This document shows positions 566 to 36,754 of a DNA stretch of 40,282 nt, piece after piece (position 1 is the first letter of the stretch; every line of letters begins with the position of its first letter). The notes beneath the pieces were generated by a model. The model searched no databases, was not told where the DNA came from, and saw only the letters and a program-made list of their open reading frames with translations. The DNA is taken from the sequence record MT465573; one strand, written 5' to 3'. The stretch is from Escherichia phage P1723. Position numbers and translations under genes: made by a program.

Positions 566-736
566 AAGCAGTAAGGGTCGCTACTGGCTCCCACAGTAGC
601 AGTCAGGAAGGGAACTAAATCCCAACAGCCGACGACTCGGCGGTTAGCATAGCGTACCATCTGAGGGTGGAAACAATATGAGATGCACGAGTCGCTTCCT
701 AAGGAGCTAATCTTACAGGGCAGGTAAACAAGCTGC

Positions 737-7301: not shown

Positions 7302-8332
7302 CATCTATTAAAACCAACCCATACAAAGCAGTAAGTTTCGTTCAGTCTGCTGTAGAGAAAGCTCTTGAGAAGAACGGTTCACTCATTGCTGACGTTAAGT
7401 ACGATGGCGTTCGTGGTAACATTGTGGTAGCCGATGACGCGCGTGGCCTGTGGTTGTCACGTGTAGCCAAGACCATCCCTGCACTGGAGCACCTGAACGG
7501 TTACGACCGTCGCTGGGAGAAGCTCCTTAAGGATGACCGCTGGATTTACCCGGAAGGGTTCATGCTTGATGGTGAACTGATGGTCAAAGGTGTGTCGTTC
7601 CAGAAGGGCTCTGGATTGCTGCGTACCAAGTGGCTCAAGCTGAACAACTTTGAGTTCACCGAGCACCGTGTGTTCCACGATGTGTGGAAGTCTAAGAACA
7701 AGCAACCATTCAACCTCTCCGTTGAGCACCTGTGCGTTCGCCTCTATGCTATCCTGCCGCTCGACAAAGTTGAGTCTGGTGAAGATATCGACGTGATGAA
7801 CTGCTTAATGCAGGTCCACTGTCAGCAGATGATTATGGTGCTGCGTGACCACTTCCCTGAAGTCTCTTGGGAACTTGCTGAGACCTACGATGTGTATGAC
7901 ATGCAGTCCCTGAACGAACTCTACGCAGAGAAACGTGCAGAGGGCCATGAGGGTCTCATCATTAAGGACCCAACAGGGACTTATCATCGCGGTAAGAAAA
8001 CTGGCTGGTGGAAGATGAAGCCAGAAGACGAAGCCGATGGTGTCGTTGTTGGTCTCAATTGGGGCACTCAGGGTCTCGCTAACGAAGGTAAGGTTATCGG
8101 CTTCCAAGTTCTCCTTGAGAATGGTGTGGTGGTTGACGCTAACAACATCTCTCAGAAGCTGATGGATGAGTTCACCGCTGAGGTGAAACGTCTGGAAGAC
8201 GAGGAGGTCAACCCTTACGAGGGCTGGCAGTGTCAGGTGAAGTTCATGGAGTACACCGAAGATGGCTCGCTCCGTCACCCTAGCTGGGATTGCTGGCGAG
8301 GGACTGAAAGTGACCCAACGGTGAAGATGTAA
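7298..8332 (+). CDS. 1.3: ATP-dependent DNA ligase, gene 1.3
   Basis: MTSIKTNPYKAVSFV...KYDGVRGN...EGLIIKDP...WWKMKP...EGKVIGF...SLRHPS matches T7 ligase including the active-site KYDGVRG; start at 7298 chosen over 7247 by RBS and T7 alignment. Confidence 0.9.
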   Translation: MTSIKTNPYKAVSFVQSAVEKALEKNGSLIADVKYDGVRGNIVVADDARGLWLSRVAKTIPALEHLNGYDRRWEKLLKDDRWIYPEGFMLDGELMVKGVSFQKGSGLLRTKWLKLNNFEFTEHRVFHDVWKSKNKQPFNLSVEHLCVRLYAILPLDKVESGEDIDVMNCLMQVHCQQMIMVLRDHFPEVSWELAETYDVYDMQSLNELYAEKRAEGHEGLIIKDPTGTYHRGKKTGWWKMKPEDEADGVVVGLNWGTQGLANEGKVIGFQVLLENGVVVDANNISQKLMDEFTAEVKRLEDEEVNPYEGWQCQVKFMEYTEDGSLRHPSWDCWRGTESDPTVKM

Positions 8333-8397: not shown

Positions 8398-8583
8398 ATG
8401 AAAGTATTACTGTTCATCTTCATGGCCTCTATAGGTCCCGGTAGTTCAAGCCCATCCGTGGAGGCTATCGCTATGCCAAGCATTCAGGCATGTAACTCGG
8501 CAGTGTCACAGCTCAAAGACGCCAAGAAGCCGGGTCGTGGTTATACCGACTACGAGTACGTCTGCGTCGAGACTTCTTATTAA
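8398..8583 (+). CDS. Hypothetical small protein, possible signal peptide (61 aa; 1.4 position)
   Basis: ATG ORF; N-terminus MKVLLFIFMASIGPGSSSP is signal-like; stop overlaps the next phage promoter. Confidence 0.45.
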   Translation: MKVLLFIFMASIGPGSSSPSVEAIAMPSIQACNSAVSQLKDAKKPGRGYTDYEYVCVETSY

Positions 8584-8971: not shown

Positions 8972-9458
8972 GCCGTACACTATCGAGACCCTGCGCAATA
9001 TCGTTTCGCAGAACCAACTGAAAGCTGGTACGACAACCTGTAGCGGAATGTCGTGTCGTGGTGTCGGCTGCTCAACGTGCCCTATGGTCGGAGCTGCTAC
9101 CGGGAACGGTACGTTCAAGACATTGAGTGAGGCTCGCAGAAGTCTTGCCGGGCAAGAGGCAATCCTAAAGGGAAGCATCCCTGTTAAACAGGCTGATGGC
9201 GCGTCACCGGGTGAAGACCCAGCAGTTAAACAGCCAAGTCACTACCAAGTGTTCGACGGTCTGGAGTCCATTGAGGTGATTGCCCGGTCGATGACCGTTG
9301 AGCAGTTCCGTGGGTTCTGTATGGGCAATACCCTTAAGTACCGCCTACGCGCTGGTAAGAAGTCCGACCAAGCTAACATCCATAAAGACCTCGCGAAAGC
9401 TGAGTTCTATAAGGAACTGTTTGAGAAGCACAAGGCAGAGTGTCATGAAGCCAAGTGA
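8964..9458 (+). CDS. 1.7: Nucleotide kinase, gene 1.7
   Basis: C-terminal PSHYQVFDGLESIEVIARSMTVEQFRGFCMGNTLKYRLRAGKKS...KDLAKAEFYKELFEKHK closely matches T7 gp1.7; Cys-rich N-terminal segment. Confidence 0.8.
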   Translation: MTKPYTIETLRNIVSQNQLKAGTTTCSGMSCRGVGCSTCPMVGAATGNGTFKTLSEARRSLAGQEAILKGSIPVKQADGASPGEDPAVKQPSHYQVFDGLESIEVIARSMTVEQFRGFCMGNTLKYRLRAGKKSDQANIHKDLAKAEFYKELFEKHKAECHEAK

Positions 9459-9540
9459 GTGGTGCGAGATGATGTTTGAACGCACTGGTGACGTGAACTA
9501 CCTCGCTATGTACAACCATTGGAAGGAGAAAGGCCAATGA
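9445..9540 (+). CDS. Small ORF in gene 1.8 position (31 aa)
   Basis: ATG inside the 1.7 stop region; stop overlaps gene 2 start (ATGA); below the tool length cutoff. Confidence 0.35.
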   Translation: MKPSEWCEMMFERTGDVNYLAMYNHWKEKGQ

Positions 9541-9719
9541 CCATTGAAAAGGGACGCCTCGTCCCAACCGATAAGAAGTACTTCGTGACGCTAAGTTACG
9601 TTGATGGTGAGCTGGAGGTTCCAGTGTTCGCTGGGTCTCTCGAAGAGGCACACGATTTGGCAACCTTTAAGTATACTCCGGTAGGCTTTGAGGTGCTCCG
9701 AGTTCGTCCAGCAGTCTAA
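9537..9719 (+). CDS. 2: Host RNA polymerase inhibitor, gene 2
   Basis: MTIEKG...YFVTLSYVDGELEVPVFAGSLEEAHDLATFKYTPVGFEVLRVRP matches T7 Gp2; ATG at 9537 with GGAAGGAGAAAGG RBS (tool ORF starts at a TTG at 9519). Confidence 0.85.
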   Translation: MTIEKGRLVPTDKKYFVTLSYVDGELEVPVFAGSLEEAHDLATFKYTPVGFEVLRVRPAV

Positions 9720-9739
9720 TAACCCACACTATAGGGAAC
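9717..9739 (+). promoter_or_regulatory. Phage RNAP promoter (phi2.5-like), variant AATAACCCACACTATAGGGAAC
   Basis: Core CCCACACTATAGGGA conserved; A instead of T at -15; +1 at 9734. Confidence 0.7.
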
Positions 9740-9769
9740 ACTCCCACAACAAACTTAAGGAGATTCATT

Positions 9770-10474
9770 ATGTCATTCAATCGTAAAGCAATCCTGACTA
9801 CCGCTCTGGGTATTTGTGAACCGTATGCGTACCTGACCAAGCCTGACTATGGCAACGAAGAGCGTGGCTTCGGTAACCCTCGTGGTGTCTATAAGGTCAA
9901 CCTGACCATCGACAACAAGAACCCGCGCTGTCAGTCCATGATTGACGAAATCGTTAAGGCGCACGAAGAGCACTTCGCTCAGCGCAAGGCAGAGTACGAA
10001 GAGAACCCACCTCAGGTACAGCGCGGTAAGAAACCACTGCTGCCGTATGAGGGTGACCTACCGTTCATCGACAACGGTGACGGTACGACTACCTTTAAGT
10101 TCTCCTGCTATGCGTCCTATCAAGACAAGAAGACAAAAGAGACCAAGGCCATTAACGTGACCATCGTGGACTCAAAAGGTAAACGCATCGAAGACCTGCC
10201 AGCTTTCATTGGCGGTGGCTCTAAGCTGAAGCTGAAGTACAGCCTGATGCCTTACACTTGGAACCCTACCGTAGGTGCTTCCGTTAAGCTGCAACTGTCT
10301 AGCGTAATGCTGGTCGAGCTGGCTGCTGGTGGCGCTGGTGGTGGTGATGATTGGGGCGACGACACCGAGGAAGGTGGCTACGAAGCTCAGCAGTCGCAGG
10401 GTCAACGTGATGAGCAGTCTTGGCAGCAGGGCGATGAGTCCGATGGCGAAGCTGATTCTGACGACGACTTCTAA
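9770..10474 (+). CDS. 2.5: Single-stranded DNA-binding protein, gene 2.5
   Basis: 234 aa; EPYAY..KPDYGNEERGFGNPRGVYKV...DGTTTFKF..YASYQDKKTKETK...acidic C-terminus ending DDDF, as T7 gp2.5. Confidence 0.95.
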   Translation: MSFNRKAILTTALGICEPYAYLTKPDYGNEERGFGNPRGVYKVNLTIDNKNPRCQSMIDEIVKAHEEHFAQRKAEYEENPPQVQRGKKPLLPYEGDLPFIDNGDGTTTFKFSCYASYQDKKTKETKAINVTIVDSKGKRIEDLPAFIGGGSKLKLKYSLMPYTWNPTVGASVKLQLSSVMLVELAAGGAGGGDDWGDDTEEGGYEAQQSQGQRDEQSWQQGDESDGEADSDDDF

Positions 10475-10948
10475 ATGACACTCAAGGAGAAACTGGAGGC
10501 TTACTCTAAGGTTTCTCCGTCTGGATGCTGGGAGTGGCAACGCGGAAAGGCTGGTAACGGGTATGGGTCAATCTCTATCGGAAACCAAAAGTCTGCGTAT
10601 GCCCACCGAGTGGCGTACCAAGAGTTTATCGGACAGATACCCGATGGCTACGTGGTACGCCACAAATGTGATAATCCTAGCTGCTGCAACCCAGAGCACC
10701 TCGAAGTGGGGACTCAGGTTGATAACATGCAGGATTGTAAAAGGCGGGGCCGATTGGTTCCACCTCCAGTTCAACGCGGAGAAGCCAACAACAAGACTAA
10801 GCTGACCGGAGACCAAGTGTCTTACGTGTTGTCATCAACCAAGTCCAACCGAGAGTTAGCTCAAGAACTGGGCGTTACGCCACAAGCTATAGGCTGGAGG
10901 AGGAAACATGGCAAACCCATATGCAGGGAGTTACATAACGAAGCCTAA
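10475..10948 (+). CDS. HNH-family endonuclease (gene 2.8 position)
   Basis: 157 aa; AHRVAYQEF...GYVVRHKCDNPSCCNPEHLEVGTQVDN carries the His/Asn/His and Cys ligand pattern of HNH nucleases; overlaps gene 3 by 41 nt. Confidence 0.8.
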   Translation: MTLKEKLEAYSKVSPSGCWEWQRGKAGNGYGSISIGNQKSAYAHRVAYQEFIGQIPDGYVVRHKCDNPSCCNPEHLEVGTQVDNMQDCKRRGRLVPPPVQRGEANNKTKLTGDQVSYVLSSTKSNRELAQELGVTPQAIGWRRKHGKPICRELHNEA

Positions 10949-11357
10949 CGGGTTCCGTTCAGGTCTGGAAGATAAGGTGTCCAAGCAACTCGAATCTAAG
11001 AACGTTAAGTTCGAGTACGAGATGTGGAAGATACCTTATGTAATCCCGGCAAGTAATCATTTATACTGCCCCGACTTTTTGTTACCCAATGGTATCTTTG
11101 TTGAGACCAAGGGTTTATGGGAAGCGGCAGATCGTAAGAAACATCTATTGATTCGCGAGCAATACCCTGAACTGGATATTCGCCTCGTGTTCTCAAGTTC
11201 ACGCACCAAGATTTACAAAGGGTCACCGACCAGTTACGCGGAATTTTGCGAGAAGCACAACATTCAGTTCGCTGACAAGTTGATTCCTGTAAGTTGGCTC
11301 AAGGAGCCTAAGCGTGAAGTACCATTCGACAAGCTCAAGGAGGGCAAAAAGAAATGA
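10908..11357 (+). CDS. 3: Endonuclease I (Holliday junction resolvase), gene 3
   Basis: 149 aa, nearly identical blocks to T7 gp3: FRSGLEDKVSKQLESK, PDFLLPNGIFVETKGLWE, HLLIREQ; GGAGG RBS. Confidence 0.95.
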   Translation: MANPYAGSYITKPNGFRSGLEDKVSKQLESKNVKFEYEMWKIPYVIPASNHLYCPDFLLPNGIFVETKGLWEAADRKKHLLIREQYPELDIRLVFSSSRTKIYKGSPTSYAEFCEKHNIQFADKLIPVSWLKEPKREVPFDKLKEGKKK

Positions 11358-11800
11358 GTGTTCAGTTTAAAACCCGTAGTTCCACGAAGACCCTTATTGT
11401 CCACTGTGCGGCAACTAAGCCAACCATGAATATTGGTCTGCGTGAAATCCGTCAGTGGCATAAAGAGCGTGGCTTTCTGGATGTTGGTTATCACTTCATC
11501 ATTCGACGCGATGGTACTATCGAGACTGGTCGTGACGTTAATCAGGTTGGTGCACATACGGTAGGTCAGAACGACTCATCCGTAGGTATCTGCTTGGTTG
11601 GTGGTGTGGATGATAAGATGCAGCCACAGGCAAACTTTACGCCTCAGCAGATGGCTACCCTGCGTAAACTTCTGGACGAACTGAAAGTTAAGTTCCCCGG
11701 TGTAGCCGTTAAGGGCCACCGTGACTTTGCTGCTAAGGCTTGTCCGAGTTTTGACGTGAAGCGTTGGCTTGACACAAACGAGCTGGTGACGGCTAAGTAA
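11354..11800 (+). CDS. 3.5: Lysozyme / N-acetylmuramoyl-L-alanine amidase (RNAP inhibitor), gene 3.5
   Basis: 148 aa; VHCAATKP..REIRQWHKE.G.LDVGYHFII.RDGT..GRD...GAH...N..S.GICLVGG, KACPSFD matches T7 lysozyme. Confidence 0.95.
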   Translation: MSVQFKTRSSTKTLIVHCAATKPTMNIGLREIRQWHKERGFLDVGYHFIIRRDGTIETGRDVNQVGAHTVGQNDSSVGICLVGGVDDKMQPQANFTPQQMATLRKLLDELKVKFPGVAVKGHRDFAAKACPSFDVKRWLDTNELVTAK

Positions 11801-11817
11801 TTCTATAGGAGGACTCT

Positions 11818-13646
<1,829 letters not shown>

Positions 13647-13722: not shown

Positions 13723-13745
13723 CATTAACCCACACCATAGGGAAC
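13723..13745 (+). promoter_or_regulatory. Phage RNAP promoter (phi4.3-like), variant ATTAACCCACACCATAGGGAAC
   Basis: C instead of T at -4; otherwise consensus; +1 at 13740. Confidence 0.6.
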
Positions 13746-28087: not shown

Positions 28088-30505
28088 ATGGCTAGTCGTA
28101 TTCAAACAGCTCTCCAGAGTAATCCTCAAGCTGCTGCCTCGCGTCTGCGTGGTGGCTCTCTCGCTGGGGCTAACTATCAGGCTGCACAGGTTGGCACACC
28201 GAACAACGTCAAGAGTGGTCTTCTGGATTCCCTTGAGAACTTCGGGAAGTCGGCTGGTGCTGCCTTTGGACGCTACGAGGACGAACAGGAGAAAGCGGGT
28301 AAGCAACAGGCCGAATGGCTGACCAAGTTCGCTCGTGAGAATCCTGATGAATATCGTAAGGCGTTCAACGATGGGACCTTGCGTTACCAAGACAACAAGT
28401 TCGCCATGCAGTTCATGCGTGAGAATATGGGGTCTAACGCTTCGTTCCGGGCAGACGCTGAGATTCAGCAGAGAATCAAAGACGGTAAGTATGGGTCGTT
28501 CAGTAAGGAAGATGAAGTCCAGATGAACAAGGACAAAGCCGAGTTGCGCAAGCTCTTCGCTGAGCAGGATGCCAAGCTGTACGGTATCGACACCAACGAC
28601 GAGCACTTCCAGTTCGGCTTAGCGTCCAACATTCAGCAACGTGAAATCTCAACGAATGACGTGTGGGATTCACATAAGGCTCAGTTCAACGAGAATGCTG
28701 CAATCGTCAACGCTAAGCAGACTTTAAGTGGTTCTCTCCACGGTCTTAATGCGACGAACGGTGAACAATATGCGACCTCGGTGACTGGCTATCTGGAGCA
28801 GACCCGTCAGGGTGCCCTATTGAATGATAAGCAGCGCGAGTCTGTATTACTAGATGCCGTAAAGAACACTTCCAATCATGCGCAAGGTGGTGCCGCTCTG
28901 GTAGCTCTTGGTGAACAGGAAGTTGAACTATACGGTAGACGTGTGAAGATTAAGGACTACGTAGGGAAGGAGTCGTGGGATTCATATCTCGCTAACGCCA
29001 ACCAATCATTAATGACACAGGACCGGGAACGTGCGAGTATCTTTGAGTCAACTATGGGCGGCATTGAGCGCTCTACTGACATCAATCTGGGTCTGGAGGA
29101 GTTACGTAAGCAGCGAGACTTCTACAACAAGATGCAGCCGGGTAGCGCACAAACAGCAGCCCTCGACCGTATCGACCGTGTTGAGCAGTCCCTTAAGGAC
29201 CGTCTTGCGCGTGAGACGGCTAAGAAGACAACTGAGAACGATAAGGCCAACCAGAAGTTCAACCGTGAGACAAACGTGTACGGAAACATTACGCGAGCGA
29301 TGAATGGTGACTTTGCGGTTCCTTTGAGTACCTCAACAATGCCTACCGACGACAACACTGGTGAGTACAAAGAGGAAGACTTCACGAACGCATTCAACAA
29401 GTATCGTAATGATATAATGAATGACCAGAACCTGACTCCTGAGCAAAAGGCTCAACAGTGGATGAAGCTGGCGAGTGTCTCCGGGAAGACCGGGTGGCCT
29501 CAGAAGGTTATGGCTCCAAGCGTTGAGGCTGCAACCAACGATTTGTCTGGTGCTATCCTTCGTGGTGCTGAGCTTAAAGGGACCGAGCTGGACCAACTCA
29601 AGGCGTACTACGAGGCTGACCCTGCGGGGTTCGTTAAGTTATTCCCTGAGCAGGGCGAGCTGATTGCCCAGATGTACACCATGAAGAAGTACGGCCTAAC
29701 TAACGAGCAGTTCGTTAAAGGCGAACGTGAGAGAAACTCTCTGAGTAAGAAGCCAGATAAAGGTGCTGCATCCTATGAGAACTTCCTGACGAACTCAGGT
29801 CAGTATCCACACCTGAACTACATGAGCCACGATGAGGCTGGTGCAGCTTACCAAGTGTACCTCGCTGAGATGCACGACCACGGAGACACACAGAAAGCCC
29901 TTAAAGCCGCCGATAGGATGGCTGAGGGGTTCACTACCACGTTTAGCGCTGGTGGCTCTGGGAACACTGCTGGTCGCCTACAGGGTGCTATCCCTACGTC
30001 ATTCCTTGAGAATGGTAATGGGTTTGATGCAACCAACGGCAAGCGTCACATGGAAGGGTTCATTAACCAAGTGGCTACCGAGGGTAAAATCTCAAGCGCC
30101 TACGTTAATGTGAACTACAACGCTGACCAAGATATCGTGCTTATCACTGGTGCTGCTGGTCAGATGCCTAAGATTATCTCTCGCGCTGATATGATTGAGG
30201 CACAGAAGGCCGAAGATGATGCTAACGCTGAACTGGCTGTCAAACAGCAAGAGAAGCAAAAGGCTGAACTTGAGAAGACCCTAGCGAACGCCAACAAGAA
30301 AGCTCCAATCGTAGCTGCTAAGGCTGCTCGTGAAGCTGGCTCTAAACGTGTACGCGCTAAGAAAGCTCAGGTGCCTAACAGTATCTACGGTGGTGAGATT
30401 CGTAAGGACCTCCAGTCCGGTGAGCCTATCGCACCAAAGCCTAAGCAGAAAACCGCCAAGGCACCTAAGGACACCAAAGCGAAGATTAACCGTCTAATTG
30501 ACTAA
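28088..30505 (+). CDS. 15: Internal virion protein C, gene 15
   Basis: 805 aa; AAGGAGG RBS; position and size of T7 gp15. Confidence 0.9.
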   Translation: MASRIQTALQSNPQAAASRLRGGSLAGANYQAAQVGTPNNVKSGLLDSLENFGKSAGAAFGRYEDEQEKAGKQQAEWLTKFARENPDEYRKAFNDGTLRYQDNKFAMQFMRENMGSNASFRADAEIQQRIKDGKYGSFSKEDEVQMNKDKAELRKLFAEQDAKLYGIDTNDEHFQFGLASNIQQREISTNDVWDSHKAQFNENAAIVNAKQTLSGSLHGLNATNGEQYATSVTGYLEQTRQGALLNDKQRESVLLDAVKNTSNHAQGGAALVALGEQEVELYGRRVKIKDYVGKESWDSYLANANQSLMTQDRERASIFESTMGGIERSTDINLGLEELRKQRDFYNKMQPGSAQTAALDRIDRVEQSLKDRLARETAKKTTENDKANQKFNRETNVYGNITRAMNGDFAVPLSTSTMPTDDNTGEYKEEDFTNAFNKYRNDIMNDQNLTPEQKAQQWMKLASVSGKTGWPQKVMAPSVEAATNDLSGAILRGAELKGTELDQLKAYYEADPAGFVKLFPEQGELIAQMYTMKKYGLTNEQFVKGERERNSLSKKPDKGAASYENFLTNSGQYPHLNYMSHDEAGAAYQVYLAEMHDHGDTQKALKAADRMAEGFTTTFSAGGSGNTAGRLQGAIPTSFLENGNGFDATNGKRHMEGFINQVATEGKISSAYVNVNYNADQDIVLITGAAGQMPKIISRADMIEAQKAEDDANAELAVKQQEKQKAELEKTLANANKKAPIVAAKAAREAGSKRVRAKKAQVPNSIYGGEIRKDLQSGEPIAPKPKQKTAKAPKDTKAKINRLID

Positions 30506-33500: not shown

Positions 33501-34486
33501 ACTACCTGCTTAGCGCTGCACGTCAGGGTCTCATTGGGAACCTTATTGAACACGCTGCGACGGGTAAGTCCTCCAAGTGGCTCAATGAGAACTTCCTGAA
33601 GTCTGCCAGCATCACGCCTGAGCAGTCCAAGGGTATCATTCAGTTCCTCAAAGACCACGCCAAGGTGGACGCTAACGGTAAGTGGACCTTCCCAGACCAA
33701 CACGCGATGAGCCTTGACCCTCGGGCTATGGACTTGTGGCGGATGGCTGATAAGGTTGCAGATGAGACCATGCTCCGACCATCCAAGATTAATGCACAGA
33801 ACGTTAAACAGTTAGGCCCGATTGTTGGCGCTGCGTTGCAGTTCAAAACGTTCGTCATTAAGTCCCTCAATGGTAAGACACTACGTACTTACTATCAGGC
33901 CACTCGCGATGGTCGTGCGATGGACGCTGCATTGTCCACAGGTATCTCCGGGATGCTTGCTGGTTCGTTCTACGTGATGCAGTCCCACATGAAAGCTGCT
34001 GGTCTCCCTGAGAACCAACGTGAGGCTTATCTCTTCAAGGCCTTAACGCCTGAGATGGTTGCCTACGCTGCGGCCTCCCGAAGCTCTATCACTGGTGCGC
34101 CGTTAGGTGTTGCAGATATGCTTCTGGGGCCAATTGGACTGACTCCAAGCCAGTACATGCGTACCACTATCAGTCCTAAGGATGCACCACAGCGAGACCC
34201 TAACAAGGCTTCCTCTGGTCGTTCCGGTACGGCTGAGCTGATGGGTGCTATTGGTCAACAGTTCCCTGTGGCTAACTACGTTGGCTCTACGGTGTCTCTC
34301 GGTCAGAACCTCTGGAACCTCGGAGGTGCCAATGGCCCTCGCGACTCCACGGAGTTCACTACAGGTGTCTATCAGAATATGAAGGAAGTTCTCCCGAACG
34401 ACCCGATTACTCAGAGACTACTTCTGGGTGCTTTCGAAGAGCACATCTACACAACCGAGCGACCTAAGCGTTCAGAGCGCTGGTAA
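30524..34486 (+). CDS. 16: Internal virion protein D with N-terminal lytic transglycosylase domain, gene 16
   Basis: 1320 aa; N-terminus GVSYDLLR...ES.FN..AKS.TGP.G.MQ.T is the transglycosylase motif region of T7 gp16; later segments (FGNPKAI, ILTGRARR, MDLWR.ADKVADE.MLRP) align with T7 gp16. Confidence 0.95.
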   Translation: MAKYDKTIPNQYDGLIRQAADANGVSYDLLRHLTFNESSFNANAKSPTGPKGIMQMTAGTGRAMGLNVFKEDNPADDRYNPEKAIPAAAKLLAGFVKKSNGDELRAALMYNVGEGPTGMPQIEAYDKQDYGSIGDEGRLYIRKLVGSAKSLRSEAIEKFGDFAKGIFEVEAPASKVTRGAPGPETASVNMDTSNLKYDQLNERTAANTWAVQNDQPEENYKPQGADKGLFYKTGDVAKVEVQNSALATMADAALGDNGYDVWSATITPSKWNSYTFTPDDIQKIRESGLRAEYAQSVLGSNAETLDEMIKLAKERQDRQDSVADAGMGAHLVGALAGAAVDPVSYIPIAGAASKGISLGRRMVTVGTQAGALNVASEVLRVGVGGGHADYMMAAGGGLLFGAGLTGVLHRANPREAESVLAATARAESRDAAMRGLPDNSAVSTEGLDFKTSPNGSQYATLDSGEVVLPDGQVLSTSNPLNPNSASQFASVDPEVTKGSMGVRMGSMTDISLHLSRSADDEVRGVAYDLLRSTTGYVKGGSGKSGTVASDVAERLHYTDTSDLTAIEQFTRDAIKDPEWTMGANRGDALARETVVRRAVEAQEDGIGVSKLTKGESKLRDEIFRFTTSKEDAMSNPAMFGNPKAIPVMNKTKLSGKYFPVAYVPEKVAAFRNVFGNSVEDAQGAMQRHFLADYASNPNTKSVVDEMVAAKNGLDSPAAVTPEMVEKWANDKAFGIVNGEFTTNLALDDIASASNSMNLGKNNFLESRHGFSMGFKSQLPDGQMFSLNDLRSFDANKLLRNYARRTNGDIAIHSTGQTTQDLLDKITAIRERAKSDPSGKLKQDANALEDTVKLLTGRARRDPNGAVDMAMGVLKDLSFVAKNAYMGLLNLTEIGGMIAKGNVRALFHGIPVVRDMMRSTKAVSGTDLQKLEYGLMGREVDNMIRPQRADLIQSLRDNSGMGSFGANALGSLKFGTQEIAAAWPMSKLLQGTTNYLLSAARQGLIGNLIEHAATGKSSKWLNENFLKSASITPEQSKGIIQFLKDHAKVDANGKWTFPDQHAMSLDPRAMDLWRMADKVADETMLRPSKINAQNVKQLGPIVGAALQFKTFVIKSLNGKTLRTYYQATRDGRAMDAALSTGISGMLAGSFYVMQSHMKAAGLPENQREAYLFKALTPEMVAYAAASRSSITGAPLGVADMLLGPIGLTPSQYMRTTISPKDAPQRDPNKASSGRSGTAELMGAIGQQFPVANYVGSTVSLGQNLWNLGGANGPRDSTEFTTGVYQNMKEVLPNDPITQRLLLGAFEEHIYTTERPKRSERW

Positions 34487-34487
34487 T

Positions 34488-34510
34488 CATTAACCCACAC
34501 TATAGGGAGA
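34488..34510 (+). promoter_or_regulatory. Phage RNAP promoter (phi17-like), copy 1
   Basis: TCATTAACCCACACTATAGGGAGAGG, +1 at 34505. Confidence 0.8.
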
Positions 34511-34550
34511 GGCAATCACGTCCTCCCTCTAGTTTTCATAAGGAGGCCAC

Positions 34551-34793
34551 ATGGCAAACGTCATTAAGACAGTTTATACGTACCCATTAGATGGCACCAC
34601 GACTGACTTTGCGATTCCCTTTGAGTACCTGTCACGTAAGTTCGTGGTGGTAACGCTCATTGGTCAAGACCGTAAAGAGCTGGTTGTTGTGACCGATTAT
34701 CGCTTCGCTACCCGCAACCTTATCTCTACGACTAAGGCATGGGGACCAGCCGATAACTATCAACAGATTGAGCTACACAACCGAGCGACCTAA
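34551..34793 (+). CDS. Truncated duplicate of the tail fiber N-terminus (gp17 residues 1-74 plus 6 aa), created by the tandem duplication
   Basis: Identical to the first 74 codons of gene 17, then runs through the duplication junction into LHNRAT and a TAA; has its own promoter and AAGGAGG RBS. Confidence 0.6.
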   Translation: MANVIKTVYTYPLDGTTTDFAIPFEYLSRKFVVVTLIGQDRKELVVVTDYRFATRNLISTTKAWGPADNYQQIELHNRAT

Positions 34794-34813
34794 GCGTTCA
34801 GAGCGCTGGTAAT

Positions 34814-34836
34814 CATTAACCCACACTATAGGGAGA
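34814..34836 (+). promoter_or_regulatory. Phage RNAP promoter (phi17-like), copy 2
   Basis: Identical to copy 1; +1 at 34831. Confidence 0.8.
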
Positions 34837-34876
34837 GGCAATCACGTCCTCCCTCTAGTTTTCATAAGGAGGCCAC

Positions 34877-36754
34877 ATGGCAAACGTCATTAAGACAGTT
34901 TATACGTACCCATTAGATGGCACCACGACTGACTTTGCGATTCCCTTTGAGTACCTGTCACGTAAGTTCGTGGTGGTAACGCTCATTGGTCAAGACCGTA
35001 AAGAGCTGGTTGTTGTGACCGATTATCGCTTCGCTACCCGCAACCTTATCTCTACGACTAAGGCATGGGGACCAGCCGATAACTATCAACAGATTGAGAT
35101 TCGTCGATACACTTCTGCAAGTGAACGTCTGGTTGACTTCAGTGATGGTTCCATCCTGCGAGCTACCGACCTTAACGTATCTCAGATTCAGACCCTGCAC
35201 GTTGCTGAAGAAGCGCGAGACCTGACCGCTGATACCATTGGCGTTAACAACGATGGCAACCTTGATGGTCGTGGTCGTCGTATCGTTAACGTGGCAGATG
35301 GTGTGGACGCTGGTGACGTTGTTACCGTAGGCCAGATGAACCGTTGGTCTGGTAGTGCTGCCGACAGCGCCAATAAAGCCAAGGTGTCCGAGACCAACGC
35401 CAAGACCTCTGAGACAAACTCAAAGGCTTCCGAGCTGTTAGCCCAGAAGTGGGCTGAGAACCCTAAAGGAACACCTGTGGTCTCCAGTCAGTATTCCGCT
35501 AAGCATTGGGCGTTGACCTCTGAGGATAGCGCTAATGCGTCTGCAACCTCTGCGGGTAACTCTCAGGCACAAGTAGCGAACGCTAAGACACAGGCTGACC
35601 GTGCTGGTGGTTACGCCAATGACGCTATGGGTTACCGCGATGCAGCCAACACGTCTGCTCAACAGGCCGCTGTATCTGAGGGCAACGCTGCGACATCTGC
35701 AAGTAACGCAAAGACTGAATCCGATAAGCTAATTCAGTTTAACACTCTGGTTGACCGGATTAACGGAGTGGCTGTACGTCAGGTTGGTGAGTTTGAGGTC
35801 CACAACTCTCGTACTTACGCTAAGCCGGGTACAGTGTATGGGGATGGTCAACTGCTGAACCGCAACCAGTTCCCTGCACTAGTAGCTGAGTTACTGGCAG
35901 GACACCTCCCGGTTGTCTCTGACTCCGAATGGCTGGCTGACCCCGGTAAACGTGGTTGCTATACCCTAGGTAACGGTACGACCACTTTCCGTGTACCAGA
36001 CCTCAACGGTGTCTATGCGGGTTCCATTAAGGCTCCTGTGTTCCGTGGTGACGCTGGGTTTACTGTAGGTGATGTTCAGAAGTCAGCTCTACCAAACATT
36101 GAGGGTCTGATTGCACTTGCCGATAATGAGCTGGCCTCCAGTGCCTCTGGTGCATTCTACAACGCTGGGCGCTCCAACAAAGGTGCAACTAACGATACCG
36201 GCGGTGCTCAGTTAGGTTTCGACGCGTCACTGTGGAACGAAATCTACAAGAAGGACACCAACGAAGCCCGAATGAACTCCGTGGTAATCGTATGGGTCAT
36301 CCGTACTCACGGGGTGGTGAACAATCCGGGTTCTGTAGATGCCGCTGTGTTGTCTTCTCGTGTCGAGCAGGTTTATACCGAACTGCTTACACGTATGGTT
36401 GCTAATGAGAACCTCCAGAAGTCTGGACAGAAGTTCCTTCGCCGAGTGTTTAGCGACCGCACGTCTCAGGGGCAACTTTCGACTGGAAGAACAGTGACTT
36501 GCTCTGAGGATATTCTCAACAAGATGCTAGTAATTGGCGCACACACCGATAGCCAAAACCCAAACTCTCAGATATATCGTTGTAGCCCGTTCCTCCAGCC
36601 GAACACTGCTGACCGAATGCACCTCACTCTATCTAACTGGTCGTACACCTTAGAGTTCCCTGCGGCGAATCAAGTTAAACTAGTAGCGGCTACAGGTTCT
36701 GGAGTACAGGCAATCAACTATATTGACGTAGTGTGCGACTACCCACAAACGTAA
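34877..36754 (+). CDS. 17: Tail fiber protein, gene 17 (T7-like N-terminal domain, divergent distal region)
   Basis: 625 aa; residues 1-150 (MANVIKTV..FEYL.RKFVVVTLIG.DRK...DYRFATR...KAWGPAD, GSILRA.DLNV.QIQT.HVAEEARDLT.DTIGVNNDG.LD.RGRRIVN) match T7 gp17; distal part differs and contains a tail-collar-like motif. Confidence 0.95.
   Translation: MANVIKTVYTYPLDGTTTDFAIPFEYLSRKFVVVTLIGQDRKELVVVTDYRFATRNLISTTKAWGPADNYQQIEIRRYTSASERLVDFSDGSILRATDLNVSQIQTLHVAEEARDLTADTIGVNNDGNLDGRGRRIVNVADGVDAGDVVTVGQMNRWSGSAADSANKAKVSETNAKTSETNSKASELLAQKWAENPKGTPVVSSQYSAKHWALTSEDSANASATSAGNSQAQVANAKTQADRAGGYANDAMGYRDAANTSAQQAAVSEGNAATSASNAKTESDKLIQFNTLVDRINGVAVRQVGEFEVHNSRTYAKPGTVYGDGQLLNRNQFPALVAELLAGHLPVVSDSEWLADPGKRGCYTLGNGTTTFRVPDLNGVYAGSIKAPVFRGDAGFTVGDVQKSALPNIEGLIALADNELASSASGAFYNAGRSNKGATNDTGGAQLGFDASLWNEIYKKDTNEARMNSVVIVWVIRTHGVVNNPGSVDAAVLSSRVEQVYTELLTRMVANENLQKSGQKFLRRVFSDRTSQGQLSTGRTVTCSEDILNKMLVIGAHTDSQNPNSQIYRCSPFLQPNTADRMHLTLSNWSYTLEFPAANQVKLVAATGSGVQAINYIDVVCDYPQT

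What the first reader, a model, noticed from the sequence alone, without database searches (positions are those of the whole stretch)
10475..10948. HNH endonuclease between SSB and endonuclease I
A 157-aa ORF with a clear HNH catalytic and zinc-ligand pattern starts on the stop codon of gene 2.5 and overlaps gene 3 by 41 nt. HNH genes in T7-like phages are often homing endonuclease-like selfish elements and vary in presence between relatives. Tight overlap with both neighbours suggests it is stably integrated into the operon.
Basis: partly seen in the sequence, partly recalled or inferred. Interest (0 to 1): 0.45.

Follow-up and report, generated by a model that had tools for sequence, protein, structure and literature searches.

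The report
T7 gene 2.8-type HNH homing endonuclease
The ORF is a real, intact HNH homing-endonuclease gene of the kind phage T7 carries as gene 2.8; it is a mobile selfish insert that the phage's closest relative lacks, it is already annotated as such in GenBank, and it is ordinary.

Summary

The window is Escherichia phage P1723. NCBI already names this exact protein "putative HNH homing endonuclease". It is homologous to T7 gene 2.8 (39% identity, E 8e-32), which sits in the same slot.

The nearest relative, Foetvirus SRT7 (about 97% identical), lacks the gene. The 200 nt just downstream of the insert are the most diverged aligned stretch in the genome (73-76% against a median of 99%), and divergence decays over about 290 nt. 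This looks like a co-conversion tract.

Across 62 SSB/endo I junctions, 46 have a gap of at most 26 nt and 16 carry an HNH of about 400 nt. HNH similarity is uncoupled from the similarity of the flanking genes.

Verdict: a free-standing homing endonuclease gene. Cleavage activity and target site are untested. Low interest.

The parts
9717..9743 (+). Phage RNA polymerase promoter (phi2.5 equivalent) that drives the SSB-HNH-endo I-amidase transcription unit
   Evidence: One of 13 copies of ATTAACCCACACTATAGGGAGA-type repeats. The next copy downstream is at 13723, so the HNH gene has no promoter of its own. No sigma-70-like promoter or terminator lies on the + strand in 9500-12000.
9770..10474 (+). 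Gene 2.5-type single-stranded DNA-binding protein (234 aa); its stop TAA is at 10472-10474
   Evidence: Pfam SBB_T7 E 3.1e-81; PHROG 112; 98% aa identity to SRT7 SSB.
10426..10474 (+). Short upstream diverged tract: 9 mismatches to SRT7 in the last 49 nt of SSB, against 19 in the preceding 656 nt
   Evidence: Mismatch map; junction sequences.
10475..10948 (+). Free-standing HNH homing endonuclease gene (157 aa), T7 gene 2.8 type
   Evidence: The exact protein is in NCBI as 'putative HNH homing endonuclease [Escherichia phage P1723]'.
10598..10732 (+). HNH_3 catalytic core (residues 42-86), holding H63, C65, D66, C70, H75 and N84
   Evidence: Pfam stretch 42-86; invariant columns. In the profile alignment to I-HmuI, the His of VVRH pairs with the His of I-HmuI VVDHK, and the Asn of DNMQD pairs with the Asn of KINVEN.
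10796..10912 (+). C-terminal three-helix HTH-like DNA-binding module (about residues 108-146)
10896..10903 (+). Shine-Dalgarno sequence GGAGGAGG for gene 3, encoded inside the 3' end of the HNH gene
   Evidence: Sequence. Nearly all HNH-carrying junctions have a GGAGG/GAGAGG-type motif a few nt upstream of the gene 3 ATG, whereas most empty junctions couple gene 3 to the SSB stop through a TAATG overlap.
10908..11357 (+). Gene 3-type endonuclease I (149 aa); the 5' half is foreign relative to SRT7
   Evidence: Pfam Phage_endo_I E 9.6e-76. The 5' half is 74.5% identical to SRT7, no closer than to other genera (75-76.5%). The 3' half is 88.9% identical to SRT7 against about 79% for the others.
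10949..11237 (+). Downstream diverged (co-conversion-like) tract; identity to SRT7 rises 73% -> 82% -> 93% -> 98-100%
   Evidence: Windows 10951-11150 are the lowest-identity aligned windows in the genome (median 99%, 1st percentile 79.7%).
11354..11800 (+). Gene 3.5-type N-acetylmuramoyl-L-alanine amidase (context; next gene in the operon)
   Evidence: Pfam Amidase_2 E 1.3e-16.

Best explanation
ORF 10475..10948 is a free-standing homing endonuclease gene (HEG) of the I-HmuI-like HNH (Pfam HNH_3) class. It belongs to the family that occupies the gene 2.5/gene 3 junction of T7-like phages, whose T7 representative is gene 2.8.

Shown: the protein has an N-terminal His-Me finger nuclease domain with every family-invariant residue intact, and a C-terminal HTH-like domain. 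The gene has no promoter or Shine-Dalgarno sequence of its own. It is transcribed from the phi2.5-type promoter at 9717, and its ATG abuts the stop of the SSB gene. Its 3' end carries the ribosome-binding site of gene 3. The nearest relative has an empty site with diverged flanks.

Inferred: translation is low-level, by coupling to the upstream SSB gene. In a mixed infection with an HNH-less relative such as SRT7, the enzyme would nick or cut the empty allele at or near the SSB-stop/gene-3-start junction. Phage recombination would then repair the break from the HNH-carrying genome, copying in the HNH gene and part of gene 3. That would produce the asymmetric tract of foreign sequence now seen in P1723. 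The insert itself, or the polymorphisms next to it, would protect the carrier genome from self-cleavage.
For: Identity and fold:
- Pfam HNH_3 at 63.3 bits against a cut-off of 24.8, and PHROG HNH families.
- C18, H63, C65, D66, C70, P73, H75, N84 and D87 are invariant in 57 homologues and are all present here.

Same family and slot as T7 gene 2.8:
- 39% identity, E 8e-32.
- T7 2.8 starts on the base after the 2.5 stop and overlaps gene 3.

Mobility:
- SRT7 is 97.4% identical over 97% of the first 25 kb. It has no homologue anywhere, and its SSB stop is followed by 8 nt and then the gene 3 start.
- The flank 10951-11150 is 73-76% identical to SRT7, the lowest in the genome, and divergence decays by about 11237. 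The upstream tract is only about 50 nt.
- The 5' half of gene 3 is as far from SRT7 as from other genera.
- Of 62 junctions, 46 have a gap of -7 to +26 nt and no HNH, and 16 have a gap of 392-436 nt with an HNH.
- At least five HNH lineages, 35-78% identical, share the slot. HNH identity does not track SSB identity (rho -0.04) or endo I identity (rho -0.38), while SSB and endo I track each other (rho +0.35).
- Related HNH genes sit at the endo I/amidase junction in other phages.

Published parallels:
- The SH1 ORF17 homologue in the same slot is absent from the close relatives SH2 and phiYeO3-12 (PMC4925675).
- T7 2.8 is treated as a dispensable homing endonuclease (bioRxiv 10.1101/2025.09.07.674715).
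- HEGs mark the boundaries of genetic exchange between phages (PMC10448857, abstract).
Against: - No nuclease activity, target site or non-Mendelian inheritance has been shown for this protein. In what I read, none has been shown for T7 gp2.8 itself either.
- The direction of the event is not resolved. No third Foetvirus genome was found, so SRT7 could equally have lost the gene, or replaced its own gene 3 region.
- No donor is in the databases. The best DNA match to the HNH plus gene 3 is only about 72%.
- A diverged flank could come from ordinary mosaic recombination that merely carried the HNH gene along.
- The junction sample is redundant (many near-identical Klebsiella phage contigs) and the pairwise correlations are not independent, so counts and p-values are only indicative.
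- The residue before the catalytic His is Arg here. In I-HmuI it is the Asp of DHK, which is a metal ligand from my memory of the I-HmuI literature. The metal site may therefore be built differently.
Confidence: 0.8

Rival explanations
1. A domesticated or dual-use HEG product. The protein is kept because it helps the phage, for example by blunting a host defence that senses DNA breaks (GAPS4), through DNA binding rather than catalysis, or by excluding co-infecting HNH-less competitors. Homing would then be secondary or extinct.
For: A preprint reports that a catalytically dead T7 gp3.8 and a BASEL phage HNH protein attenuate GAPS4. It also reports that a T7 mutant lacking genes 2.8, 3.8 and 7.7 is outcompeted by wild type only when GAPS4 is active. 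The slot has been occupied across many genera by old, diverged lineages with intact ORFs, which suggests some retention.
Against: gp2.8 was never tested alone in that work. The gene is missing from the nearest relative and from 46 of 62 junctions, so any benefit is conditional. Full retention of the catalytic and zinc residues argues that nuclease activity is still under selection.
Confidence: 0.12
2. A passenger in an ordinary mosaic exchange. The HNH gene and the 5' part of gene 3 arrived (or left SRT7) by generic homologous recombination between co-infecting T7-like phages, with no help from the endonuclease, which may be inactive on present-day targets.
For: The P1723/SRT7 alignment has several other low-identity patches and indels unrelated to any nuclease, for example 8101-8250, 30201-30350 and 36201-36400. 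A separate 234-nt gene is present in SRT7 and absent here only about 100 nt beyond the tract.
Against: The most diverged aligned stretch of the whole genome lies directly against the HNH gene, with a monotonic decay away from it. The same gene family shows presence/absence at exactly this junction in several genera. HNH genealogy is uncoupled from both flanks. All of this is expected for endonuclease-driven conversion.
Confidence: 0.06
3. A core DNA-metabolism or packaging nuclease, either an accessory to endonuclease I or a terminase-associated HNH like HK97 gp74.
For: It lies in the DNA-metabolism operon, tightly packed between SSB and endonuclease I.
Against: It is not conserved: it is absent in SRT7 and in most relatives. 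T7 lacking gene 2.8 is viable. It is more than 25 kb from the packaging genes; SRT7 'DNA packaging protein A' lies at the other end of the collinear genome. Its architecture, a nuclease plus a sequence-reading HTH, is that of I-HmuI and not of the small terminase-partner HNH proteins.
Confidence: 0.02

Closest known systems
Bacteriophage T7 gene 2.8 product (139 aa)
   Same: Homologous across the full length: 39% identity, E 8e-32. Same Pfam signatures, HNH_3 and zf-His_Me_endon, plus a C-terminal HTH-like tail. Identical genomic slot and packing: it starts on the base after the gene 2.5 stop, overlaps gene 3, and a GGAGG-type SD for gene 3 lies inside its 3' end. In T7 it is dispensable and is treated as a homing endonuclease.
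   Different: A different lineage of the family. P1723 belongs to the PP74/PE3-1/SH1 group (64-78% identical to one another), and T7 to another group (73% to L063). P1723 is 18 aa longer and has a longer gene 3 overlap (41 nt against 20 nt). Its last 8 residues (150-157) are modelled with pLDDT below 50.
HNH genes in the same slot of Pectobacterium phage PP74 (orf17), Escherichia phage PE3-1, Citrobacter phage SH1 (ORF17) and Klebsiella phages K42PH8/K74
   Same: The closest sequence relatives: 66-72% aa identity, the same junction, and annotated as HNH homing endonucleases. SH1 ORF17 is published as present in SH1 and absent in the near-identical SH2 and phiYeO3-12. That is the same polymorphism seen here between P1723 and SRT7.
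   Different: They sit in other genera (Berlinvirus, Kayfunavirus, Teetrevirus) whose SSB is only 47-70% identical to that of P1723. None is close enough, at no more than 74% aa or about 72% DNA identity, to be the donor.
I-HmuI (PDB 1U3E), the intron-encoded HNH homing endonuclease of Bacillus phage SPO1
   Same: The best structural match by both methods. Same order of modules, with the His-Me finger nuclease followed by helices and a C-terminal HTH. The catalytic His and the metal-binding Asn align. By analogy the enzyme is probably monomeric and may nick one strand (from my knowledge of I-HmuI; not tested here).
   Different: Only 18-21% identity, with borderline sequence E-values (0.011). 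P1723 is free-standing, not intron-encoded. It carries an invariant Cys/His set (C18, C65, C70, H75) suggesting a structural zinc site like that of I-PpoI (weak zf-His_Me_endon match), at positions where I-HmuI has no Cys in the aligned stretch.
Free-standing HEGs of T4-like phages (SegG, SegE, MobE)
   Same: The same lifestyle is inferred: intergenic insertion next to conserved essential genes, marker exclusion, and co-conversion of flanking sequence from a nearby cleavage site (the literature cited).
   Different: Seg proteins are GIY-YIG enzymes. T4 HEGs often have their own promoters, whereas this gene has none. No experimental homing data exist for this gene.

Membership tests
HNH / His-Me finger endonucleases (Pfam HNH_3, PF13392) | Profile match above the curated threshold | tested here: met
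   63.3 bits against a cut-off of 24.8, E 1.6e-17, full-length model match 2-46/46.
HNH / His-Me finger endonucleases (Pfam HNH_3, PF13392) | Beta-beta-alpha-metal fold | tested here: met
HNH / His-Me finger endonucleases (Pfam HNH_3, PF13392) | Catalytic His and metal-binding Asn retained | tested here: met
   H63 and N84 are invariant in 57 homologues. They align with the DHK His and the KINVEN Asn of I-HmuI.
HNH / His-Me finger endonucleases (Pfam HNH_3, PF13392) | Divalent-metal-dependent DNA cleavage | not testable with these tools
   Needs purified protein.
Free-standing homing endonuclease genes | Presence/absence polymorphism at one defined site among close relatives, with a clean empty site | tested here: met
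   SRT7 (about 97% identical) has the SSB stop, 8 nt, then the gene 3 start, and no homologue elsewhere. Junction gaps are bimodal across 62 loci. SH1 against SH2/phiYeO3-12 shows the same.
Free-standing homing endonuclease genes | Genealogy uncoupled from the flanking genes (horizontal spread) | tested here: met
   Spearman rho -0.04 (HNH against SSB) and -0.38 (HNH against endo I), compared with +0.35 (SSB against endo I), over 66 pairs of 12 loci. The pairs are not independent.
Free-standing homing endonuclease genes | Co-conversion tract of donor sequence next to the gene | tested here: inconclusive
   A decaying tract of 73-93% identity over about 290 nt downstream and about 50 nt upstream, the most diverged aligned stretch in the genome. 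Its direction and cause cannot be fixed without a third Foetvirus genome or a donor.
Free-standing homing endonuclease genes | Site-specific cleavage of the gene-less allele and super-Mendelian inheritance in mixed infection | not testable with these tools
   Needs a cleavage assay and P1723 x SRT7 crosses.
Free-standing homing endonuclease genes | Nuclease domain joined to a separate DNA-recognition module | tested here: met
   A three-helix C-terminal domain after a lower-confidence linker (pLDDT 69-74 around residues 91-110). Structural matches to Tc3 and Hin HTH domains. The Pfam HTH hits are only sub-threshold.
T7 gene 2.8 family | Sequence homology to T7 gp2.8 over the full length | tested here: met
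   39% identity, E 8e-32, residues 1-147 against 1-136.
T7 gene 2.8 family | Location between gene 2.5 and gene 3, abutting the 2.5 stop and overlapping gene 3 | tested here: met
   Window coordinates compared with T7 9857-10276 between 9158-9856 and 10257-10706.
Terminase-associated HNH proteins (HK97 gp74 type) | Gene adjacent to the terminase/portal genes, needed for packaging | tested here: not met
   The gene lies in the phi2.5-type DNA-metabolism operon. The packaging genes are at the far right end of the collinear SRT7 map.

The most novel reading that the evidence does not exclude
The insert may be more than a parasite, in two ways. (a) Its product may help P1723 against HNH-less Foetvirus competitors or against DNA-break-sensing host defences such as GAPS4, as a preprint proposes for T7's HNH genes collectively. 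(b) Because its 3' end supplies the only Shine-Dalgarno sequence and the ATG context of gene 3, replacing the TAATG stop-start coupling used at most empty sites, the element may have made its own loss costly. Anything short of a precise excision would cripple endonuclease I expression.
Probability: 0.15. Interest if true: 0.45.

Novelty: already known. Interest (0 to 1): 0.15.

Why it matters
It matters little beyond this genome. The result puts the right label on a P1723 gene: a T7 gene 2.8-type free-standing HNH homing endonuclease. It explains the largest local difference between P1723 and SRT7, namely the insert and the foreign 5' half of gene 3. The P1723/SRT7 pair is a ready-made natural test system for homing at the 2.5/3 junction, with carrier and empty-site genomes about 97% identical. 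This matters somewhat because T7 gp2.8-type enzymes still lack a mapped target site, and because HEGs have recently been proposed to aid phages against host defence.

Tried and rejected
- NCBIfam has no model for the protein.
- I looked for a third Foetvirus genome to decide gain against loss. The phage collection has only SRT7. An exact 26-mer scan of IMG/VR returned only SRT7. A metagenome scan with the SSB protein found nothing above 73% identity.
- I looked for the donor of the HNH plus gene 3 segment. The best DNA match is about 72% and the best protein match 74%.
- I looked for a second copy or paralogue in the window and in SRT7 and found none.
- I looked for a dedicated promoter or terminator and found none.
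- Base composition of the insert is unremarkable: about 52% GC in the insert and 44-56% in the flanking windows.
- The antisense ORFs across the region (10172..10540 and 10568..10816, minus strand) were set aside without testing. All the genes identified here are on the + strand, and every homologue aligns to the + strand frame.
- A literature search for phage P1723 gave no descriptive paper.

Full report
**1. The observation**

The window contains an ATG-initiated ORF at 10475..10948 on the + strand, encoding 157 aa. The upstream ORF 9770..10474 is a T7 gp2.5-type SSB (Pfam SBB_T7, E 3e-81). The downstream ORF 10908..11357 is endonuclease I (Phage_endo_I, E 1e-75), followed by the gp3.5-type amidase.

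The ATG does not share bases with the gp2.5 stop; it begins on the next base (TTC TAA ATG). The overlap with gene 3 is exactly 41 nt.

The HNH signature is not a chance pattern:
- Pfam HNH_3 scores 63.3 bits against a gathering cut-off of 24.8 (E 1.6e-17), with a weaker match to the zinc-binding loop family of His-Me homing endonucleases.
- Eleven PHROG endonuclease/HNH families match.
- There are 192 database homologues at E<=1e-10.

**2. What the window is, and what is already on record**

The exact 157-aa sequence is in NCBI as "putative HNH homing endonuclease [Escherichia phage P1723]", on a contig of 40,282 bp, which is the length of this window.

The closest sequenced genome is Escherichia phage SRT7, genus Foetvirus, Studiervirinae. 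It is 97.4% identical over 97% of the first 25 kb and collinear throughout.

**3. The protein**

A 57-sequence alignment shows these invariant residues: M1, C18, G29, H63, C65, D66, C70, P73, H75, L76, G79, N84 and D87. P1723 has all of them.

An AlphaFold2 model built on that alignment is confident (mean pLDDT 87). It shows an N-terminal beta-rich region, two strands and a helix around residues 60-90, a lower-confidence linker, and three C-terminal helices at 112-145. Residues 150-157 fall below pLDDT 50.

- Foldseek against the PDB puts the HNH homing endonuclease I-HmuI (1U3E) first, over all 157 residues (E 7.7e-4, probability 1.00), followed by I-PpoI.
- The family profile aligns to I-HmuI across both domains (E 0.011). 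H63 falls on the His of I-HmuI's DHK motif and N84 on the Asn of KINVEN.
- Pfam sees the C-terminal HTH only below threshold. Several homologues carry annotated HTH domains.

The invariant C18/C65/C70/H75 set probably forms a structural zinc site. That is inferred from conservation and from the zf-His_Me_endon match, not from geometry.

So the protein is a nuclease domain joined to a DNA-reading module, with nothing degenerate in the catalytic core.

**4. The slot**

T7 gene 2.8 occupies the same place. It starts on the base after the gene 2.5 stop and overlaps gene 3 by 20 nt. Its product is homologous to the P1723 protein along its whole length (39% identity, E 8e-32) and has the same Pfam signatures.

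Closer homologues (66-72% aa identity) sit in the same slot in Berlinvirus PP74, Kayfunavirus PE3-1, Teetrevirus SH1 and several Klebsiella phages.

I collected 62 SSB/endo I junctions from GenBank, IMG/VR and metagenome contigs. The spacing is bimodal:
- 46 junctions have a gap of -7 to +26 nt and no HNH. Most use a TAATG stop-start overlap.
- 16 junctions have a gap of 392-436 nt filled by an HNH gene.

The sample is redundant, so these are illustrative counts and not frequencies.

In the HNH-carrying loci I checked, the gene begins 0-14 nt after the SSB stop. Nearly all of them show a GGAGG or GAGAGG motif inside the 3' end of the HNH gene, a few nt upstream of the gene 3 ATG. In P1723 this motif is GGAGGAGG at 10896-10903.

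In a few Klebsiella-type contigs a 37-39% identical paralogue sits at the next junction instead, between endo I and the amidase.

**5. Evidence for mobility**

SRT7 has no homologue anywhere in its genome. Its junction reads SSB stop, GGTCTACC, then the GTG of gene 3.

Per-100-nt identity between the two phages has a median of 99% and a first percentile of 79.7%. The windows at 10951-11150, directly downstream of the insert, are 73-76% identical, the lowest of any aligned stretch in the genome. Identity climbs to 82%, then 93%, then 98-100% by about 11240. Upstream, only the last 50 nt or so of SSB are affected.

The 5' half of gene 3 is as far from SRT7 (74.5%) as from phages of other genera (75-76.5%). 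The 3' half is clearly SRT7-like (88.9% against about 79%). This is the pattern expected for a co-conversion tract left by repair of a break near the junction from a diverged HNH-carrying donor.

Among 12 non-identical HNH-carrying loci, at least five HNH lineages (35-78% identical) share the slot. HNH similarity does not follow SSB similarity (rho -0.04) or endo I similarity (rho -0.38), although SSB and endo I follow each other (rho +0.35). For example, T7 has one of the closest SSBs to P1723 (71%) but a 42-43% identical HNH. PE3-1 has the most distant SSB (47%) but a 69% identical HNH.

Published work reports the same polymorphism in another genus. SH1 carries the slot's HNH (ORF17), while its close relatives SH2 and phiYeO3-12 do not (PMC4925675).

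**6. Expression**

The phage promoter consensus ATTAACCCACACTATAGGGAGA occurs at 9717, just upstream of SSB, and next at 13723. No sigma-70-like promoter or terminator lies on the + strand between 9500 and 12000.

The HNH gene is therefore part of the SSB-HNH-endo I-amidase transcription unit. No Shine-Dalgarno sequence precedes its ATG (GACGACTTCTAAATG). Translation is most likely by coupling to SSB and at a low level; this is inferred.

**7. Mechanism and its limits**

The best-supported reading is an active or recently active free-standing homing endonuclease gene. The enzyme would cut or nick the empty 2.5/3 junction region of a co-infecting relative, and the gene would be copied in along with part of gene 3.

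The following remain unshown:
- catalytic activity
- nick versus double-strand cut
- the target site
- the direction of the P1723/SRT7 difference

I could not find a third Foetvirus genome or a donor. SRT7 may therefore have lost the gene, or may itself have replaced its gene 3 region.

Generic mosaic recombination that merely carried the gene along cannot be excluded. The genome has other diverged patches. A separate indel, SRT7's 77-aa gp30, lies just beyond the tract and has its own small cluster of mismatches.

**8. Rivals and the novel reading**

A core or packaging role is contradicted by three things: the patchy distribution, the viability of T7 lacking gene 2.8, and the distance from the packaging genes.

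A benefit to the phage is possible. A 2025 preprint reports that HNH homing endonucleases, even catalytically dead ones, attenuate the GAPS4 defence. It also reports that a T7 mutant lacking genes 2.8, 3.8 and 7.7 loses to wild type only when GAPS4 is active. Gene 2.8 was not tested alone.

The insert provides gene 3's ribosome-binding site, so imprecise loss could be costly. This is speculation from sequence.

**9. Verdict**

The gene is a member of a known family in its known slot, and public annotation already labels it correctly. Interest is low. Its one practical value is that P1723 and SRT7 form a natural carrier/empty-site pair for testing homing at the T7 2.5/3 junction.

Noticed in passing
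window 34447-34772 and 34773-35098: A perfect 326-bp tandem duplication, absent from SRT7. It spans the end of the 1320-aa internal virion protein gene, a phage promoter copy (34488 and 34814) and the start of the tail fibre gene. It leaves an 80-aa truncated fibre N-terminus ORF (34551..34793) ahead of the full 625-aa fibre gene (34877..36754). It could be a real duplication or an assembly artefact.
   Followed up: partly
window 11357/11384 (SRT7 record MH370477.2 28552-28785; L001 3660-3893): SRT7 carries a 77-aa hypothetical gene (gp30) between endonuclease I and the amidase that this window lacks. The first 10 or so codons of the amidase also differ (MSVQFKTRSS against VANVKFKERAA). This second presence/absence polymorphism lies about 100 nt beyond the HNH-associated tract and has its own small cluster of mismatches at 11330-11395.
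   Followed up: partly
loci L016, L022, L026 (2938-3351) and L028 (2729-3115): In some Klebsiella-type T7-like contigs, a 37-39% identical HNH paralogue sits between endonuclease I and the amidase instead of between SSB and endonuclease I. The family therefore uses at least two adjacent intergenic junctions.
   Followed up: no
window 10896-10910, compared with loci: Gene 3 translation signals differ with HNH status. Most empty junctions overlap the SSB stop and the gene 3 start (TAATG) with no Shine-Dalgarno sequence; SRT7 uses GTG after an 8-nt spacer. HNH-carrying junctions generally give gene 3 an ATG preceded by a GGAGG-type motif that lies inside the HNH coding sequence.
   Followed up: partly
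window 571-736, 8402-8577, 36386-36745; low-identity patches 8101-8250, 30201-30350, 36201-36400: Other segments with no alignment or low identity to SRT7. The one at 36.2-36.7 kb lies in the 3' part of the tail fibre gene, which may bear on host range. None resembles the HNH gene.
   Followed up: no
window 302, 6417, 6816, 8578, 9717, 13723, 19084, 21616, 22646, 27080, 34488, 34814, 39677: Thirteen copies of a phage RNA polymerase promoter-like repeat with consensus ATTAACCCACACTATAGGGAGA. This differs from the T7 and T3 consensus sequences as I recall them.
   Followed up: no
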